DNA of 64,000 nt from a phage. The DNA lies in assembly GCA_018015315.1 (NCBI GenBank), contig GCA_018015315.1_3629.1, one strand, 5' to 3'. Shown piece after piece: positions 15,783-61,079 of the stretch. The notes beneath the pieces are model-generated. The model saw only the letters and a program-made list of their open reading frames with translations, did no database searches and was not told the DNA's origin. A program made the position numbers and the translations under genes. Numbering within the stretch: position 1 is the stretch's first letter; every line of letters begins with the position of its first letter.

Positions 15783-15859
15783 TGGTCTCCACGGAGTGAT
15801 TCGAACACTCGACCTCCTGATCCCAAATCAGGCGCTCTACCAAGCTGAGCTACGCGGAG
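15783..15859 (-). tRNA. tRNA-Pro (anticodon TGG)
   Basis: cloverleaf by eye: 7-bp acceptor stem (one G-T), anticodon loop TTTGGGA, T-loop TTCGAAT, encoded CCA. Confidence 0.8.
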
Positions 15860-15870
15860 TATTTACTATT

Positions 15871-15945
15871 TGGTGGCCCTGGGTGGAATTGAACCACCGT
15901 CTGGCGATTATGAGTCGCTTGCTTGAACCTTCCAGCTACAGGGCC
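15871..15945 (-). tRNA. tRNA-Met (anticodon CAT; initiator, elongator or Ile-lysidine not distinguishable)
   Basis: perfect 7-bp acceptor GGCCCTG/CAGGGCC, loop CTCATAA, T-loop TTCAATT, encoded CCA. Confidence 0.8.
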
Positions 15946-15946
15946 T

Positions 15947-16022
15947 TGGTGCTGATGGCAGGACTTGAACCTGCAACATATTGATTACAAATCAATTGCA
16001 CTACCAATTGTGCTACATCAGC
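15947..16022 (-). tRNA. tRNA-Thr (anticodon TGT)
   Basis: acceptor GCTGATG/CATCAGC, anticodon loop TTTGTAA, T-loop TTCAAGT, encoded CCA. Confidence 0.8.
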
Positions 16023-16029
16023 AAAAAGG

Positions 16030-16126
16030 TGCTAGGTGATGGAATCGAACCATCTATGTATTCAACGACTACCTCGTCTATTTTCAGGATTAAAAATCCT
16101 CGCCCTTGCCAAAGGGCTTACCTAGC
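16030..16126 (-). tRNA. atypical type-II tRNA-like gene (Leu-like scaffold, apparent anticodon TTT)
   Basis: perfect acceptor GCTAGGT/ACCTAGC, D-arm, perfect T-arm GATGG-TTCGATT-CCATC, discriminator A; anticodon hairpin AGGATTTTTAATCCT; about 30-nt variable region with GACGA/TCGTT hairpin; CCA not encoded. Confidence 0.45.
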
Positions 16127-16224
16127 TCAGTATGTTGACCATGTTGCTAGTCGGCGATGACGACTGTAACATTTGATAATCCGGTTCTGCTTCCGGCTTT
16201 CGCTTAATTACAAGGTCAACAATG

Positions 16225-16315
16225 TGGCAGAGGATAATGGAATCGAACCATCATCGAGTCATCCTCAACGGGACGGTTTTCAAGACCGCTTGAGCACCAT
16301 TGCTCCCTACCCTCT
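16225..16315 (-). tRNA. tRNA-Ser (anticodon TGA)
   Basis: type-II: acceptor AGAGGGT/ATCCTCT, anticodon loop CTTGAAA, about 20-nt variable arm, discriminator G, encoded CCA. Confidence 0.7.
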
Positions 16316-16432
16316 TTTATTATAAACAATACTGATAATGACACTGATTTTCGAGCAGTTAGTGACTAGTATAAACGACGATAAATACCAATGCCATTAT
16401 CTGTATGATTTATGCATCTAAAAATATAAATT

Positions 16433-16519
16433 TGGTGGGGAGTGGTGGAGTCGAACCACCCGAGTCGCAATGACAATAGATTTACAGTCTACACCGCTAC
16501 CTCTACGGGATAACTCCCC
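16433..16519 (-). tRNA. tRNA-Tyr (anticodon GTA)
   Basis: type-II: acceptor GGGGAGT/ACTCCCC, anticodon loop CTGTAAA, long variable arm, discriminator A, encoded CCA. Confidence 0.8.
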
Positions 16520-16523
16520 AATT

Positions 16524-16598
16524 TGGCACCCCGTACTGGACTCGAACCAGTGTCAACGGCTTAGAAGGCCGCTGCTTTATCCACTAAGCTAACAGGGC
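16524..16598 (-). tRNA. tRNA-Arg (anticodon TCT)
   Basis: anticodon stem-loop GCGGC-CTTCTAA-GCCGT, T-arm ACTGG-TTCGAGT-CCAGT, acceptor with two G-T pairs, encoded CCA. Confidence 0.75.
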
Positions 16599-56479: not shown

Positions 56480-56637
56480 AGTGCACGATTGCATACCTTG
56501 GACAGATAATCTCATTACAGAGCGTTTAAGAGCTTCCTACAAACAACTCCATATTTCGAGCGTAGCGAGAACGCACGTCCGTTTTGACCCAAATCACCAT
56601 ACGCTCGGATTTTAACCAAACCCTCGCGGCGTTTCTG

Positions 56638-56666
56638 TTGACACATTATCGCTCCAGTGATAATAT
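56638..56666 (+). promoter_or_regulatory. sigma70-like promoter
   Basis: TTGACA-17 bp-TAATAT; lies inside track ORF 56584-56997. Confidence 0.5.
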
Positions 56667-56686
56667 CCACACATCATTTGGAGAAT

Positions 56687-56788
56687 ATGGAATACACAAT
56701 GAAAACACTGTCCGAAGTTTTGGTGGTGATCCTGATGATCATTACGTCCATAGCAGCTGTTGCCGGAATACTCACGGGTGGAACATGA
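56687..56788 (+). CDS. small hydrophobic peptide (33 aa)
   Basis: ATG after GGAGA (short spacing); single TM-like segment; stop overlaps next ATG. Confidence 0.3.
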   Translation: MEYTMKTLSEVLVVILMIITSIAAVAGILTGGT

Positions 56789-56997
56789 TCAACACACATG
56801 TATCTGAAGAGACATCCGAAGGAGTTACCATATGTCCATTGGCTGAGCCAGTGAAAGAGGAAAACTTCGATTCTGATGACTCTTCATCTTCGCTCCAGGT
56901 AGACCCTGAGGCTGATGACCTGACGTGGGAAGACATCGTAGATATCTGGTTCTCTATTATGCCTGAGCACGAAGAGTTCAGGGGCGGTAGACTATGA
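56785..56997 (+). CDS. small acidic protein
   Basis: 69 aa; C-terminal part of track ORF 56584-56997, restarted downstream of promoter. Confidence 0.4.
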   Translation: MINTHVSEETSEGVTICPLAEPVKEENFDSDDSSSSLQVDPEADDLTWEDIVDIWFSIMPEHEEFRGGRL

Positions 56998-57117
56998 AGC
57001 ACCGAGCCCACACAGGTTCCTCATGCTAAAGCATGGCCTGAAGAGGCAAACGTGCATAATTCCTGTGCATTGTGACGTATAAAACCCGTTCACACTCTCA
57101 TTTCCAGAGGAGATTTC

Positions 57118-57333
57118 ATGAAGATAGAAATATTTGGTGGAGTTGACAACACTCGTGGCCTGATTTACCTTGAATTCGATGAATCATACCTGCCAGAGGT
57201 GTTAAATATAGACTCTGTTGCTGAGGCTTTGGGAGTAAACCCTAAAGAACTCCACTCTTGTGCTGAGATCGATGGTTGGGAAGAGACCATGAACATTGAT
57301 TTCAGTGAAGTAGAGGATGAACCGCTGGACTGA
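57118..57333 (+). CDS. small acidic protein
   Basis: MKIEIFGG N-terminus like other family members; last plus-strand gene before non-coding region. Confidence 0.45.
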   Translation: MKIEIFGGVDNTRGLIYLEFDESYLPEVLNIDSVAEALGVNPKELHSCAEIDGWEETMNIDFSEVEDEPLD

Positions 57334-57683
57334 CACACAATTAGCTGCCAGGCTAAAGTGCTGGAAGCACCTATAACACATCTTTCAACTAAATTTCCTA
57401 CCACCACAATCACTTACCTCCCACACATGACTGTTTGCTTGTTTAGTGAGCAGTCATGCCTTGACATTCTTGCCTATCCTGATAAAATTAAGTTCTTCTC
57501 TTTTCTTTTACCGAGTAATTCGGGTTTTCTGTTCTCTTCGGTTTGAAGGGGTATGGAGATACACCTGAGTGAACAGGGTGAACAACCGAACATTTGGCTA
57601 TGGCATTAGCATGGCGAAGCGGACGGGTGACGAAAGAGGGGCCGGAGGACACCAGTCACTGCCATATGGTATATGGGTGATAA

Positions 57684-58224
57684 CCTGAAGAGTCTGAATA
57701 AGTGTTTAAGTACCAGTCAGAGGAAAAGGTGAATGGTAGCCGAAGGGGGAGGGGGGTTTCTTGTATCTTTAATTTGTATATTATGTATACACTTGTAAAC
57801 CAATCTCATTTGAATTTGTTTACCACACAAAGTGGATAGAGACAAATATTACCTATTAAACTTGAATTATTTATAGAAAATACCACAACACTACTTAAGT
57901 CTTTGATTTTACACACAAATCCTGCAGATATTCACCCTCCATATTTAACATACTTGTAACATATTCCATACTCTACCTGCCCGATCAATTCACCCAACTA
58001 CATCCCCATATTTTCCCTGTCTGTACTACCCCTGCCCCGCCGGGAGTCCCGTCATATCTGGCTTTCCAGCAAATATCACACCCACAAATATCATTGCCTG
58101 AAGAGGGTTTCATCCCATAGTACATGCCTTACCTGAAGAGCGCTTCATATACCCCGTAAATTTTTTAATTGACACCCTCCCCGCCGCCGGAGGGGGTTGG
58201 CTTTTCCCACACAGACCTGAAGAG
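57684..58224 (+). repeat. dispersed direct repeat CCTGAAGAG (4 copies)
   Basis: exact 9-mers at 57684, 58097, 58132, 58216 in non-coding DNA. Confidence 0.7.
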
Positions 58225-58785
58225 CCAGCCAGAAATATCTGAACAGGTCCAGCTATGCCACGATTTTGTGCTTGTCCTACAGGAGTGCTTCCCTGTCAGG
58301 AGCCGGTAGCGACTGGAGTGCTGCCAGGCGGACGAAATGGGAATACTTCTCATTCTTATAACAATTCTCAAATATCGAGGCAGTGAGACAAATTAATAGG
58401 CTTTGCCGTTCACACAATGGCACAACATTTGCAGCCTATCTTGTGGGGGGTGAATGAGAATACCTATCATTGCGAGAATAGTTATCATTACGGGCAATTT
58501 AACATAATACCCATTATGCGCACCACTGGCGATATATACAGGGGTTAATAACATGGTGGACTGTTTACGCACATTACAATTGCATTACTTATTATTTGTG
58601 TGGGATATAGTTAGCCACCAACAGATTGCATAATAACCTGCAGACTTCCAGCCGTCCAGACGCCTAAGCGCCTACACAATAAGGATTATACATACACAAC
58701 TGAATGTAAACAGGGCCGCAAAAATGCTACCATACAAGATTGTAAATTTTTCATGCAGCACTTGACAAAGAGGAGAAAAACTTGT

Positions 58786-58875
58786 CTGACATACTGGTGA
58801 CATAATATGACACTTTAGACACAATAGTGACATACTGGACACGATATGACACACTGGGCATAATTGACATACCTG
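58786..58875 (+). repeat. iteron-like array of (A/T)GACA(C/T)A motifs at 10-11 bp spacing
   Basis: about 8 copies, including TGACATACTGG twice and TGACACACTGG once. Confidence 0.7.
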
Positions 58876-58983
58876 ACTGTTTACGCTGTCACTATTCACT
58901 CGCTTACATGCTTAATAGACTACATGACTAATAGTTTACATAGCTAACTGTTCACGTATAGATTGTTTACTTAAAAATGATAA

Positions 58984-59264
58984 GCCATGCCATTCGTTTG
59001 CATGATAAAGATTAGCAAGTTAATAATCTTTCACTGGCTATGCCAGGTGACCTTTTGTCACCTCTTCGGGTGTTTCTATGACATAATATAAAAGCAGGGC
59101 AACTATTAGCAGATCTATAGTTGCCTTGCTTGTTATGTCATGATTAACTAAATACAAGGCAACTATGATCTGATTAATAGATTGCAGACAAACTATCACG
59201 GGGGTGATGGTTACTGCTTTTATATTATGTCGCGACTCCGTCGCGCCATGCCATTCGTTTGCAT
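58984..59264 (+). repeat. 20-bp perfect direct repeat GCCATGCCATTCGTTTGCAT (2 copies)
   Basis: copies at 58984-59003 and 59245-59264. Confidence 0.8.
59098..59125. repeat. palindrome GGCAACTAT-10 bp-ATAGTTGCC
   Basis: 9-bp inverted repeat; further half-site copies near 59160 and 59265. Confidence 0.75.
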
Positions 59265-59880
59265 AGTTGCCTTATTGTTACAGATAAAATAATTATATTG
59301 TTAATTATTTCTTATCTTTCTCTTAGTCATCTAATGATTCCAGTCAGTATAGTAATGTACAGTAAACATTAGACGACTAAAGATTTATCTGCTTATAATA
59401 ACTTACCGTGACAATTCCGGACTGTTTACGAAAAATGTTGACACCTGAGCTGATTTATGTTATGCAATTTACACGAATAATTATTTTATGCAGGTATTGA
59501 CTATTACGTTATTCTATGGTCGGAATAAATACTTAGCGGACTATAGAATGGTGACGCTACGTGAATTCTGGAATTTAGTGGCTATAGTTATACCCGATTT
59601 TTCACGTAGAACACGCTTTTGTGGTTATGTAAGTGTATGACTTATAAAGATTTTTAGTTGTTGACAAGGCACTGAAGATATGCATCAGGTTAAATTTTGT
59701 GCAATAGCTGCATTACGTGCAATTTTGGAAGGAAAAACGTGTAAAAATGGCCCTGCTACCACACAATGAAAGATTATGCAATAGCTATTTTACATGTATA
59801 TTTGTACAGTGTGTGGGATTGATGGCTAGTCAATTATTCCACTTGCCAGGCTGGGCCGTTTGTGGTAGGAGAAATACAGA

Positions 59881-59909
59881 CAAAAAGAAAGGGGCCTTTT
59901 AAAGCCCCT
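59881..59909 (-). terminator. rho-independent terminator
   Basis: GGGGC..GCCCC hairpin followed by U-tract on minus strand; 20 bp downstream of stop of 59928-60347. Confidence 0.6.
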
Positions 59910-59927
59910 GATAGTTTAGTTAAGAAA

Positions 59928-60347
59928 TTATAATGATTCGTATATTTGATAGATTCGATTTGCCAGGTCATTACGATAGCGGAATTTTTCATCACGCTTG
60001 ATCATCAGATCTTTGAAGCCATATTCTTTAAGCACTTCATTAACTTTATAGCGGCATACCTTCATATTATCTTGCGCGTCACCGATAAACTTGTTGCTAT
60101 GATGCATGGCTTTGATCTCTTCCTCCAGGACCAGGGCAACTACGCGGACCGGATCAAGCTGATATGCGGTAACATCAATGCGGCATTGTAAACGGCTTTT
60201 AACGTCTGCCACCGGATATACTGCAACCTCTTCCCCGTCAACATTCACAATAACCAGTTTACCATCAATTTCAAAACCTTTTGCGGCTGGGCCGTGACAA
60301 AAAGCGTTATCAAAGCTGTATGCGGGATTGTTAGATTTAATATTCAT
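59928..60347 (-). CDS. hypothetical protein
   Basis: 139 aa; own promoter and terminator. Confidence 0.5.
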   Translation of the reverse strand: MNIKSNNPAYSFDNAFCHGPAAKGFEIDGKLVIVNVDGEEVAVYPVADVKSRLQCRIDVTAYQLDPVRVVALVLEEEIKAMHHSNKFIGDAQDNMKVCRYKVNEVLKEYGFKDLMIKRDEKFRYRNDLANRIYQIYESL

Positions 60348-60393
60348 GGTGTTTACCTCTTAGATAATTTTCTTACAACTTCCCTTCAAAAAG

Positions 60394-60422
60394 AATATAG
60401 CAAAACTGCCGATCCCTGTCAA
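60394..60422 (-). promoter_or_regulatory. sigma70-like promoter
   Basis: minus-strand TTGACA-17 bp-TATATT. Confidence 0.5.
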
Positions 60423-60483
60423 CAAGGGATAGCATAATTTTTGTGTGGGCAATAGGGGCCGTAGCCCCTGGTTGTATCGCCTG

Positions 60484-60747
60484 TTATTTGTTATTCATCC
60501 AGTTTTCCCAAGATGCCTGATACTCGGCCTCACTGCGGCGGATCTCTTCTTGTTCTGCAAGGCGGATCTCTTCTTCCAGGTAGCCTAAGATGTCAGCTTT
60601 TTTGGTCTGGCGTAACATCCAATCGTCCTTTTTGCGAGTAAAGATTTTATATGCTTTCTCACAAACTTCTTTTTTGCTACCTTTCTGTACTTCAAGGATA
60701 CGGTAGGCCATGTATTGAACTAATTTAAGTTGGTCGATACGTTTCAT
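60484..60747 (-). CDS. hypothetical protein
   Basis: 87 aa ORF. Confidence 0.45.
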   Translation of the reverse strand: MKRIDQLKLVQYMAYRILEVQKGSKKEVCEKAYKIFTRKKDDWMLRQTKKADILGYLEEEIRLAEQEEIRRSEAEYQASWENWMNNK

Positions 60748-60806
60748 GATGTTTTCCTCTTTTGTGGTCTTGATTAGTGGGCCTTCCGGCCCGTGTCATT
60801 ATCTTA

Positions 60807-61079
60807 TTACTTACGGCGGCAGAATTCAAGGGTTTTTAATTGATAATCTTCCTCGGCCTGGAGTACAACCGCCTCGATCATTTCGTTGGCATTGTTGAAG
60901 CCATAACCTTTAGCGAACTCATCCGCACCACCTTTGTGATCATGTTCTGCGTTCATCGCTTCCACAAAATGGAATTCCAGATTGTTAAGGTATGGGCTTG
61001 ATGTTCCGTCCTCTTTTTCGATGAGATCCCAAATAGCATTAAAACGTGATTCGACTTCTTGATTAATCCAGCTTGACAT
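60807..61079 (-). CDS. hypothetical acidic protein
   Basis: 90 aa; GAGAGAGGAAAA RBS. Confidence 0.45.
   Translation of the reverse strand: MSSWINQEVESRFNAIWDLIEKEDGTSSPYLNNLEFHFVEAMNAEHDHKGGADEFAKGYGFNNANEMIEAVVLQAEEDYQLKTLEFCRRK

What the first reader, a model, noticed from the sequence alone, without database searches (positions are those of the whole stretch)
58984..59278. 20-bp perfect direct repeat and GGCAACTAT palindromes
GCCATGCCATTCGTTTGCAT occurs twice 261 bp apart. Between the copies lie the palindrome GGCAACTAT-n10-ATAGTTGCC (59098-59125), extra half-sites near 59160 and 59265, and a GC palindrome CGCGAC-TCCG-TCGCG (59231-59246). GACTGTTTACG also recurs three times (near 58558, 58874, 59412). 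Dense, varied repeats suggest a multi-protein assembly site.
Basis: seen in the sequence. Interest (0 to 1): 0.55.

Follow-up and report, generated by a model that had tools for sequence, protein, structure and literature searches.

The report
Conserved folded element beside phage terminus
The repeats are the arms and flanks of a roughly 150-base folded DNA/RNA element that sits about 750 bases from the physical left end of an rV5-like E. coli phage genome; related phages in at least five genera carry a counterpart in the same place, so it is probably a signal used when the genome ends are processed, although its function has never been tested.

Summary
The 20-mer occurs twice (58984, 59245). 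Four of the five GGCAACTAT copies in 64 kb lie within 59098-59271. The GC palindrome and the three GACTGTTTACG copies are real.

The window is an rV5-like phage (Vequintavirus). The finding lies in the genome's single roughly 2.6-kb ORF-free gap, between convergent gene blocks. Three independent records and one paper place a 458-460-bp direct terminal repeat (DTR) at window 58327-58786.

The motifs form a fold 294 bp inside the DTR. It has an 18-bp perfect closing stem (59080-97 / 59214-31), two inner hairpins and a following GC hairpin, with fold z-scores of -9 to -10. Stem-closed counterparts occur 525-920 bp from the left terminus in Mydovirus, Seunavirus, Justusliebigvirus and Phapecoctavirus. 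Their closing stems are always perfect and carry compensatory substitutions (12 of 68 pairs against 5.6±1.5 in shuffles). The + strand folds better than the - strand.

Rfam has no match and I found no paper describing the element. One phage record, FV3, lacks the segment exactly between the two 20-mers.

Most likely this is a cis-acting part of the genome-end module, acting in terminase loading or DTR processing. A processed non-coding RNA or a single-strand priming signal remain live rivals.

The parts
58327..58786 (.). Direct terminal repeat (DTR) of the virion chromosome. The left physical end is at 58327 (GGCGGACGAAATGGG...). The right DTR boundary is ...AAAAACTTGTC|TGACATA.
   Evidence: The YN3 record carries an exact 458-bp repeat at both ends, which maps here. 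Gotham annotates repeat_region 1-459 and 136567-137025. bov11CS3 v2 starts at the same base. A 458-bp terminal redundancy is reported for EdH4/HdK5 in PMC6563267.
58787..58870 (+). Array A: TGACAYAnnn repeats with a period of about 10 bp. It starts exactly at the DTR boundary, and copy number differs between phages.
   Evidence: (D4, D6)
58869..58975 (+). Array B: (A/G)nTGTT(T/C)AC(A/G) repeats with a period of about 11 bp. It includes one GACTGTTTACG copy, varies in copy number, and is absent in V18.
   Evidence: (D1)
58984..59003 (+). 20-mer copy 1, GCCATGCCATTCGTTTGCAT
   Evidence: Conserved in relatives, with one C>A variant.
59004..59077 (+). Variable spacer. It holds TTAGCAAGTTAATAAT-type short duplications and an optional 32-bp GC-rich hairpin module (59043-59076).
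   Evidence: Presence/absence among 18 phages.
59080..59097 (+). P1 5' arm, GACATAATATAAAAGCAG: one half of the 18-bp perfect closing stem.
   Evidence: (I2). No variable position in 17 phages.
59098..59185 (+). P2: a long hairpin built from GGCAACTAT sites S1 (59098-59106, +), S2 (59117-59125, -) and S3 (59158-59166, +). An alternative hairpin can form at 59092-59131, extendable to 59078-59141.
   Evidence: (I7, I15)
59191..59212 (+). P3 hairpin, AACTATCAC-GGGG-GTGATGGTT, with a T.G wobble on the + strand. It resembles P3 of BME3 and Mt1B1_P17.
59214..59231 (+). P1 3' arm, CTGCTTTTATATTATGTC
59231..59245 (+). P4: GC hairpin CGCGAC-TCC-GTCGCG directly after P1. The counterpart in BME3 and Mt1B1_P17 covaries.
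59245..59264 (+). 20-mer copy 2. Its last two bases start site S4 (ATAGTTGCC, 59263-59271, -). It lies inside the near-invariant block 59198-59280.
59420..59430 (+). Third exact GACTGTTTACG copy. The first exact copy, at 58559-58569, lies inside the DTR.

Best explanation
The window comes from an rV5-like myovirus whose virion DNA has a 460-bp direct terminal repeat at 58327-58786. That repeat sits in the only large non-coding gap of the genome.

- two arrays of phased 10-11-bp repeats (58787-58975);
- a 20-mer;
- a roughly 150-nt element closed by an 18-bp perfect stem, with two inner hairpins (P1-P2-P3, 59080-59231);
- a GC hairpin (P4);
- the second 20-mer.

Shown here: the position relative to the genome end, the fold, the conservation of the fold, and compensatory evolution of counterparts in four further genera.

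Inferred: the element acts in cis during end-associated DNA transactions. The most likely role is as the recognition and loading platform (pacB-like) from which terminase and accessory proteins find and process the DTR in concatemers. In this reading the folded + strand or extruded stem, the four GGCAACTAT sites, the TGACATAA sites and the 20-mers serve as contacts.
For: Identity and ends:
- 120 Vequintavirus records match the region.
- The DTR was mapped from three independent records and one paper.
- rV5 authors show the region only as an ORF-free 'non-coding' box between convergent units.

Anatomy:
- Perfect 18-nt inverted repeat, unique in 64 kb.
- Fold z-scores of -9.2 to -10.4 on either strand, as DNA or RNA.
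- GACATAATAT occurs exactly three times in 64 kb: once in array A and once in each P1 arm.

Conservation within the genus:
- P1 arms and P3 stems have no variable position in 17 phages. 59198-59280 is near-invariant, while the sequence just upstream is indel-rich.

Same architecture elsewhere:
- KPP-1 has a 21-nt perfect inverted repeat 309 bp after its published DTR.
- BME3 has a 15-nt perfect inverted repeat 283 bp after its DTR.
- Mydo, GAP31, 4MG, PVP-SE1 and Mt1B1_P17 all have perfect P1 stems.
- The left-end motif TGCYA|GRCGGAC is conserved, and P1 lies 748-918 bp from it.

Pairing is selected:
- 12 of 68 pairs have double compensatory changes against 5.6±1.5 in shuffles (0 of 500 reach 12). 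Slid controls give 1-3.
- There are transversion swaps in P1 and P4 between BME3 and Mt1B1_P17.

Field context:
- How exact DTR ends are made is poorly understood (PMC13595956).
Against: - No binding, cleavage or packaging data exist for any of these phages.
- The element is 294 bp from the nearer DTR boundary and 753 bp from the left end. By my recollection, that is farther than cosB or pacB lie from their cut sites in lambda, P1, SPP1 or T3.
- The FV3 record lacks the 241 bp between the two 20-mers. The element is therefore either dispensable in a viable phage or was lost during cloning or sequencing.
- The + strand folds better than the - strand: -78.8 against -64.9 kcal/mol, with a conserved T.G pair. 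That points to a single-stranded form (RNA or ssDNA) rather than duplex protein sites.
- Perfect inverted repeats can also be kept perfect by template-switch correction without selection.
- Some papers call Vequintavirus circularly permuted or headful from default PhageTerm runs.
Confidence: 0.38

Rival explanations
1. It is a structured non-coding RNA of + polarity. The long perfect P1 duplex would be an RNase III-type processing stem that releases the 120-200-nt inner part from a longer transcript. The RNA would then act in packaging, regulation or anti-defence, for example as a decoy.
For: - Compensatory changes in several stems.
- The + strand is favoured, with G.U-type pairs conserved on that strand only.
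- Very stable fold.
- In three genera an inner 3' segment is repeated just downstream of P1, which allows alternative pairing (I4, 75).
- An rV5-like phage is known to express a non-coding repeat RNA that defeats ToxIN (PMC3475682).
- Dispensability in FV3 would fit an accessory RNA.
Against: - No Rfam family matches.
- No promoter-like site is consistently placed upstream and no terminator downstream in KPP-1, BME3 or PVP-SE1. Promoter-like counts there are not above shuffles. In the window only 9-10/12 matches lie upstream.
- The sequence just upstream of P1 is the least conserved part of the gap.
- P1 never contains a G.U pair in nine variants.
- I found no transcript data.
Confidence: 0.25
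2. It is a single-strand initiation signal. When a DTR 3' end invades another copy and primes rightward synthesis, the displaced + strand folds into this structure about 300 nt past the DTR. The fold then recruits primase, primosome or RNA polymerase to start the complementary strand.
For: - Strand-specific folding of the + strand.
- A roughly constant position 200-330 bp inside the DTR's inner boundary across five genera.
- Such a signal would be helpful rather than essential, which fits the FV3 deletion.
- From general knowledge: phiX174, G4 and plasmid ssi signals are structure-dependent hairpin clusters of similar size.
Against: - This is purely inferential. The replication mode of these phages is unknown.
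- No PriA or primase recognition motif was identified.
- The cumulative GC-skew maximum here marks a transcription or replication convergence point. That says nothing about recombination-primed forks.
Confidence: 0.12
3. It is a bidirectional transcription terminator or insulator. It would stop the two convergent transcription units from running into the DTR.
For: - On the - strand, hairpin 59131-59092 is followed by TTTTATATT. Murica and Alma annotators call it a terminator.
- On the + strand, P3 followed by TTTTATATT is found by the scan.
- rV5 authors expected, but did not find, bidirectional terminators between genes 163 and 164.
Against: - A canonical terminator already ends the - block at 59909-59890, 660 bp away.
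- The counterparts in KPP-1, BME3 and PVP-SE1 have no T-tracts after their stems.
- Terminators do not need 150-260-nt multi-branch folds, perfect 15-21-bp closing stems or near-invariant sequence.
Confidence: 0.08
4. It is a duplex replication origin, with iteron-like repeats plus palindromes bound by an initiator.
For: - Dense phased repeats (arrays A and B) and multiple inverted sites.
- The region is non-coding.
Against: - The site is a cumulative GC-skew maximum at a convergence of transcription, not a minimum.
- The arrays vary freely in copy number and are missing in V18.
- Compensatory pairing and strand asymmetry are not expected for duplex iterons.
- FV3 lacks the core.
Confidence: 0.05
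5. It is a selfish or neutral palindromic insertion, or a local duplication. The perfect arms would be kept by template-switch correction and the 20-mers would be a target duplication, with no function for the phage.
For: - Flanking 20-bp direct repeats, with one genome (FV3) holding exactly one hybrid copy.
- Small hairpin modules come and go nearby.
- The core is more uniform than its flanks.
Against: - The element is kept in 119 of 120 records, and no deletion junction appears in metagenomes.
- Counterparts sit at the same position in five genera of two subfamilies with diverged sequence.
- Stems are conserved more than loops.
- Other genera have no flanking direct repeats, and no other copy of the core exists in the window.
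Confidence: 0.05

Closest known systems
T7/T3 concatemer junction (terminal repeat flanked by short-repeat arrays SRL/SRR, pacB, and a palindrome-derived hairpin intermediate; Dunn & Studier 1983; Chung, Nardone & Hinkle 1990; recalled from memory, not re-read here)
   Same: - An exact short DTR lies in a non-coding stretch.
- Arrays of short phased repeats start at the DTR boundary.
- A palindromic element lies a few hundred bp from the repeat.
- PhageTerm calls the Mydovirus relative T7-type.
   Different: - These are myoviruses with no phage RNA polymerase promoter at the junction.
- The DTR sits between convergent rather than co-directional genes.
- The structure is on the left-end side, is much larger, and is a stem-closed multi-hairpin.
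- No sequence similarity.
Lambda cosB / SPP1 pacL-pacR / P1 pac (multi-site small-terminase platforms)
   Same: Several copies of a short motif occur in both orientations within about 200 bp, next to the place where the genome is cut.
   Different: - Here the motif copies are mutually complementary and covary as stems.
- The distance to the cut sites is 294-753 bp.
- No TerS binding has been shown.
phi29 pRNA (Rfam RF00044)
   Same: A stem-closed three-way-junction fold of 120-170 nt is encoded within the first kilobase of the left genome end of a phage.
   Different: - No Rfam hit.
- No promoter evidence.
- The host phages use nuclease-type terminases and DTRs rather than protein-primed unit genomes.
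- It has not been shown to be RNA.
T5 injection-stop-signal region (repeat- and palindrome-rich non-coding DNA at the inner edge of the terminal repeat; recalled from memory)
   Same: A non-coding block dense in direct repeats, inverted repeats and palindromes lies just inside a terminal repeat.
   Different: - The T5 repeat is about 10 kb and carries pre-early genes.
- Two-step injection is not known for rV5-like phages.
- No sequence similarity was tested.
Single-strand initiation signals (phiX174 PAS, G4 oric, plasmid ssi/Frpo)
   Same: Strand-specific, structure-dependent hairpin clusters of 60-300 nt in non-coding DNA.
   Different: No recognised PriA or primase motifs, and the context is a dsDNA phage terminus.

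Membership tests
Short-DTR (T7-type) genome-end module | Virion DNA ends at fixed positions with an exact direct terminal repeat | tested here: met
   - Records YN3 and Gotham carry identical 458/459-bp repeats at both ends, and three records start at the same base.
- A 458-bp redundancy is reported in PMC6563267.
- This is by homology to relatives; no reads from this phage itself were available.
- Conflicting 'permuted' calls exist.
Short-DTR (T7-type) genome-end module | Short tandem repeat arrays abutting the repeat boundary | tested here: met
   Array A starts at 58787, the first base after the DTR. BME3 repeats start at base 343, right after its 342-bp DTR.
Terminase recognition site (pac/cosB-like) | Sequence-specific binding of the small terminase, and requirement in cis for packaging | not testable with these tools
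   This needs EMSA or footprinting and plasmid-transduction or deletion assays. The FV3 deletion argues against strict essentiality, if it is real.
Structured RNA family (any Rfam family, including phi29 pRNA) | Match to a curated covariance model | tested here: not met
   cmscan of 56500-61000 at E<=1 gave no hit in 58300-59800.
Structured RNA (generic) | Base pairs maintained by compensatory substitutions | tested here: met
   12 of 68 pairs carry double changes against 5.6±1.5 in shuffles, and slid controls give 1-3. There are further swaps in BME3 versus Mt1B1_P17. This is equally compatible with a folded DNA strand.
Structured RNA (generic) | The element is transcribed (promoter, terminator or a detected transcript) | tested here: inconclusive
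   Only weak promoter-like sites were found, none consistently placed across genera. No transcriptome data were found.
Intrinsic (bidirectional) terminator | Compact GC-rich hairpin followed directly by a U-tract, conserved in relatives | tested here: not met
   The feature is present in the window on both strands, but the counterparts in KPP-1, BME3 and PVP-SE1 lack T-tracts.
Iteron-type replication origin | Initiation of replication at the site; usually a skew minimum and an initiator gene nearby | tested here: inconclusive
   The site is a cumulative GC-skew maximum at convergent transcription. There is no initiator gene adjacent. Initiation itself is not testable here.
Mobile palindromic element / target-site duplication | Multiple copies at unrelated sites, with presence/absence polymorphism bounded by the duplication | tested here: not met
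   The core is single-copy in the window. It has the same position in five genera. Only one empty site (FV3) occurs among 120 records, and none in metagenomes.

The most novel reading that the evidence does not exclude
The element is a previously unrecognised phage non-coding RNA family, shared by Vequintavirinae and Stephanstirmvirinae. It would be a stem-closed multi-way-junction RNA encoded within the first kilobase of the genome's left end and excised at its perfect P1 duplex. It would work in trans, either in DNA packaging (a pRNA-like role in terminase-using myoviruses) or as an anti-defence decoy.
Probability: 0.2. Interest if true: 0.85.

Novelty: new variant of a known kind. Interest (0 to 1): 0.6.

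Why it matters
How phages with exact short terminal repeats recognise, cut and duplicate their ends is poorly understood outside T7/T3 (PMC13595956). rV5-like and phi92-like phages are widely isolated and used as therapeutic and biocontrol candidates.

A conserved, covarying, positionally fixed element next to the DTR gives a concrete handle for several purposes:
- It defines where genome records should start.
- It is a candidate cis signal for packaging or end replication, which matters for transduction risk and for engineering these phages.
- If it is transcribed, it would be a new phage RNA family.
- It shows that the 'non-coding box' drawn in the rV5 map in 2013 is organised and under selection.

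Tried and rejected
- Rfam scan of the gap: nothing.
- Literature searches for an origin, non-coding region, transcriptome or termini of Vequintavirus found no description of this element.
- IMG/VR scan with the 20-mer gave only two relatives.
- A scan with the Fur-box-like DTR motif was too unspecific. Of 120 hits, two were useful.
- The flanking 87-aa protein is not conserved across genera, so it could not serve as an anchor.
Homology between genera therefore rests on position, architecture and 12/18 identity of the P1 arms.
- A promoter read from the 20-mer (TTGCAT-17-TAATAA) is too weak and its spacing is not conserved.
- Covariation inside Vequintavirus is uninformative because the core barely varies.
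- The FV3-type deletion junction was searched for in phage records and in metagenomes and is unique to FV3.

Full report
**1. Observation**

- The 20-mer GCCATGCCATTCGTTTGCAT lies at 58984-59003 and 59245-59264. No other match exists in 64 kb even at 3 mismatches, and 0.01 matches are expected by chance.
- GGCAACTAT occurs five times in the window. Four copies lie within 174 bp: 59098 (+), 59117 (-), 59158 (+) and 59263 (-). The chance expectation is 0.65, and no shuffle reaches five.
- The GC palindrome is CGCGAC-TCC-GTCGCG at 59231-59245.
- GACTGTTTACG is exact at 58559, 58875 and 59420. These are the only matches in the window at up to 1 mismatch.

- An 18-nt perfect inverted repeat, 59080-59097 / 59214-59231. 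It is the largest perfect inverted repeat with a 20-250-nt spacer in the whole window.
- Two arrays of phased short repeats at 58787-58975.

**2. Where the region lies**

The region matches 120 phage records at 85-97% identity, all Vequintavirus (rV5-like myoviruses of about 136 kb).

It lies in an ORF-free gap of about 2.6 kb between a + strand block ending at 57333 and a - strand block ending at 59928. The rV5 genome paper draws this gap as a grey 'non-coding' box. It notes a skew change there and gives no function. The window shows the same cumulative GC-skew maximum.

The physical genome ends map into this gap:

- Record vB_EcoM_YN3 carries an exact 458-bp repeat at both ends.
- vB_EcoM_Gotham annotates a 459-bp repeat_region at both ends.
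- YN3, Gotham and bov11CS3 v2 all begin at the same base, which is window 58327 (GGCGGACGAAATGGG).
- Korf et al. report a 458-bp terminal redundancy for two Vequintaviruses (PMC6563267).

The direct terminal repeat (DTR) is therefore 58327-58786. The finding lies 200-500 bp inside the left end of the unique sequence. Two announcements call these phages permuted or headful from PhageTerm defaults. I consider the fixed, identical ends in independent records the stronger evidence.

**3. Anatomy**

Alignments of 10 and of 18 relatives show the following layout, reading rightward from the DTR:

- Array A (TGACAYA, period about 10 bp) begins at the first base after the DTR.
- Array B (TGTTTAC, period about 11 bp) follows. 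Both arrays vary in copy number between phages.
- 20-mer copy 1.
- A spacer with short duplications and an optional 32-bp hairpin module.
- From 59078, a core that barely varies. 59198-59280 is near-invariant.

Within 59080-59231, 19 of 152 positions vary among 17 phages. None of the variable positions lies in the P1 arms or the P3 stem.

The core folds into four parts:

- P1: an 18-bp perfect closing stem.
- P2: a long hairpin made from the GGCAACTAT copies, or alternatively hairpin 59092-59131.
- P3: 59191-59212.
- P4: the GC hairpin that follows P1.

As DNA or RNA, on either strand, the fold z-score is -9.2 to -10.4. Two T.G/G.T wobbles fall on the + strand.

GACATAATAT occurs exactly three times in 64 kb: once in array A and once in each P1 arm.

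**4. Natural variants**

- FV3 has a single 20-mer with the left context of copy 1 and the right context of copy 2. That is a precise loss of the 241 bp between the repeats.
  - The junction is unique to FV3 among 120 records and absent from metagenome contigs.
  - It shows that the direct repeats can mediate deletion of the palindrome.
  - It either shows the core is dispensable in culture or is a cloning/sequencing artefact. I cannot tell which.
- V18 lacks array B and 20-mer copy 1.
- rV5 and LL12 carry a 33-bp insert after hairpin 1.

**5. The same element in other genera**

- Klebsiella phage KPP-1 (Mydovirus). Its published 514-bp DTR (PMC9862379) also lies in a convergent non-coding gap. 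A 21-nt perfect inverted repeat enclosing 164 nt starts 309 bp after it. The fold z-score is -11.1.
- E. coli phage BME3 (Justusliebigvirus; 342-bp DTR, PMC12210895). Short repeats start at base 343. A 15-nt perfect inverted repeat enclosing 117 nt starts 283 bp after the DTR, with z = -8.7.
- blastn with these regions reaches further genera. The structure is the best-conserved part, and many records start or end 500-700 bp from it.
  - Reached: Seunavirus (PVP-SE1, SSE121, GAP31, 4MG).
  - Reached: Cronobacter, Enterobacter and Erwinia phages.
  - Reached: Phapecoctavirus (phAPEC8, ESCO5, Mt1B1_P17).
- P1 is a perfect inverted repeat in every genome examined, although its sequence differs:
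  - AGCGACACAATAACACGGGAG
  - CGACACAATAACACTAGGG
  - GCGACACAATAACACGGGG
  - GCGACACAATAACACGAGGG
  - GACACTATAACACGAGAG
  - GCTAATAATAACGCA
  - GCTAATAATAAGCCA
- The window's P1 arm, GACATAATATAAAAGCAG, shares 12 of 18 bases with the Mydovirus arm.
- The left-end sequence is conserved: TGCCA|GGCGGAC in Vequintavirus and TGCTA|GACGGAC in Mydovirus and Seunavirus. P1 lies 748-918 bp from it, and 525-625 bp in the phi92/phAPEC8 group.
- P3 (AACTATC...GATAGTT) and the post-P1 hairpin P4 are shared between the window and BME3/Mt1B1_P17. P4 covaries between the latter two: GCCTATG/CATAGGC versus CGCTATG/CATAGCG.

**6. Covariation and strand**

On six Mydovirus/Seunavirus sequences the consensus fold has 68 pairs. 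Twelve carry compensatory double changes, against 5.6±1.5 in column shuffles (0 of 500 reach 12). When partners are slid, the count is 1-3. With six sequences this is modest but consistent, and it is reinforced by the Stephanstirmvirinae swaps.

The + strand alignment folds to -78.8 kcal/mol with 68 pairs. The - strand folds to -64.9 kcal/mol with 60 pairs. The difference comes from conserved T.G pairs.

P1 itself never contains a wobble pair. Perfect arms could in part reflect template-switch correction, which itself requires hairpin formation.

**7. Interpretation**

Shown:

- That element is positionally fixed and pairing-constrained.
- It belongs to the genome-end module of short-DTR myoviruses in two subfamilies.

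Inferred: what it does.

I rank a cis-acting role in end processing or packaging first, at about 0.38. The reasons are its fixed relation to the DTR, the motif it shares with the boundary array, and the multi-site layout. The weaknesses are the distance to the cut sites, the FV3 deletion and the strand asymmetry.

The rivals, in order:

- A + strand non-coding RNA excised at P1, about 0.25. The structural evidence fits. However, no consistent promoter or terminator is found, there are no transcript data and there is no Rfam match.
- A single-strand initiation signal on the strand displaced by DTR-primed synthesis, about 0.12.
- A bidirectional terminator, about 0.08. The window has terminator-like features on both strands, but they are not conserved in other genera.
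- A duplex origin, about 0.05.
- A neutral or selfish palindrome, about 0.05.

**8. Comparison with known systems**

The module resembles the T7/T3 concatemer junction: a short DTR, boundary repeat arrays and a nearby palindrome implicated in a hairpin intermediate. That comparison is from memory. The differences are gene orientation, side, size and form.

It is not a member of any Rfam family. The terminator definition fails across genera. Pac-site membership cannot be tested computationally.

**9. Verdict**

This is a real, non-random feature.

To my knowledge, and within the literature I could search, the element is undescribed. I rate it a new variant of a known kind (a cis element at a DTR terminus). 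There is roughly a 20% chance that it is a new phage RNA family.

Noticed in passing
window 57461-57750: A strong sigma70-like promoter (TTGACA-16-TAAAAT with TG, 57461-57488) is followed by the most conserved block of the whole non-coding gap. At 57500-57750 the majority fraction is 0.98-1.0 in 18 phages. The RNA fold z-score is only -1.8 and there is no Rfam hit. It may be an unannotated small RNA or a tiny ORF.
   Followed up: partly
window 16028-16126: ARAGORN reports a 99-nt tRNA-like gene with a four-base anticodon (atcc) inside the tRNA cluster at 15783-16598. It could be an intron-containing or frameshift-suppressor-like tRNA, or a pseudogene.
   Followed up: no
window 59043-59076; rV5 (L001) and LL12 (L024) insert after window 59132; YP-6 (L023) insert after about 59014: Small GC-rich hairpin modules (32-33 bp) are present or absent at different positions beside the core in different phages. 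Related sequences (CCTCGAGACGAAGGC...CCTGAG) are inserted at non-homologous sites. They behave like mini mobile hairpins.
   Followed up: partly
window 58453-58493; L025 3414-3467; L026 40-76 and 235-271: Fur-box-like palindromes (AATGAGAATnnnTATCATT) lie inside the DTR of the window phage and in the DTRs of KPP-1 and BME3. They are candidate host-factor or terminase sites within the repeat.
   Followed up: partly
window 58768-58739 (- strand): A conserved promoter-like site (TTGTCA-18-TACAAT) at the right edge of the DTR points leftward into the repeat. The TTGACA at 58762 on the + strand is conserved in Mydovirus at the same boundary.
   Followed up: no
public records MG0656xx and CP057073.1: Eighteen 'Campylobacter phage' records marked UNVERIFIED, and a 137.6-kb E. 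coli 'plasmid' (CP057073.1, non-mobilizable), are Vequintavirus genomes. They are likely mislabelled, or phage DNA co-assembled with a host.
   Followed up: no
window 59263-59274; L025 4065-4082; L026 826-842: In three genera a segment identical or near-identical to an inner 3' strand of the structure is repeated 20-55 nt downstream of the closing stem. This would allow an alternative pairing or provide an extra protein site.
   Followed up: partly
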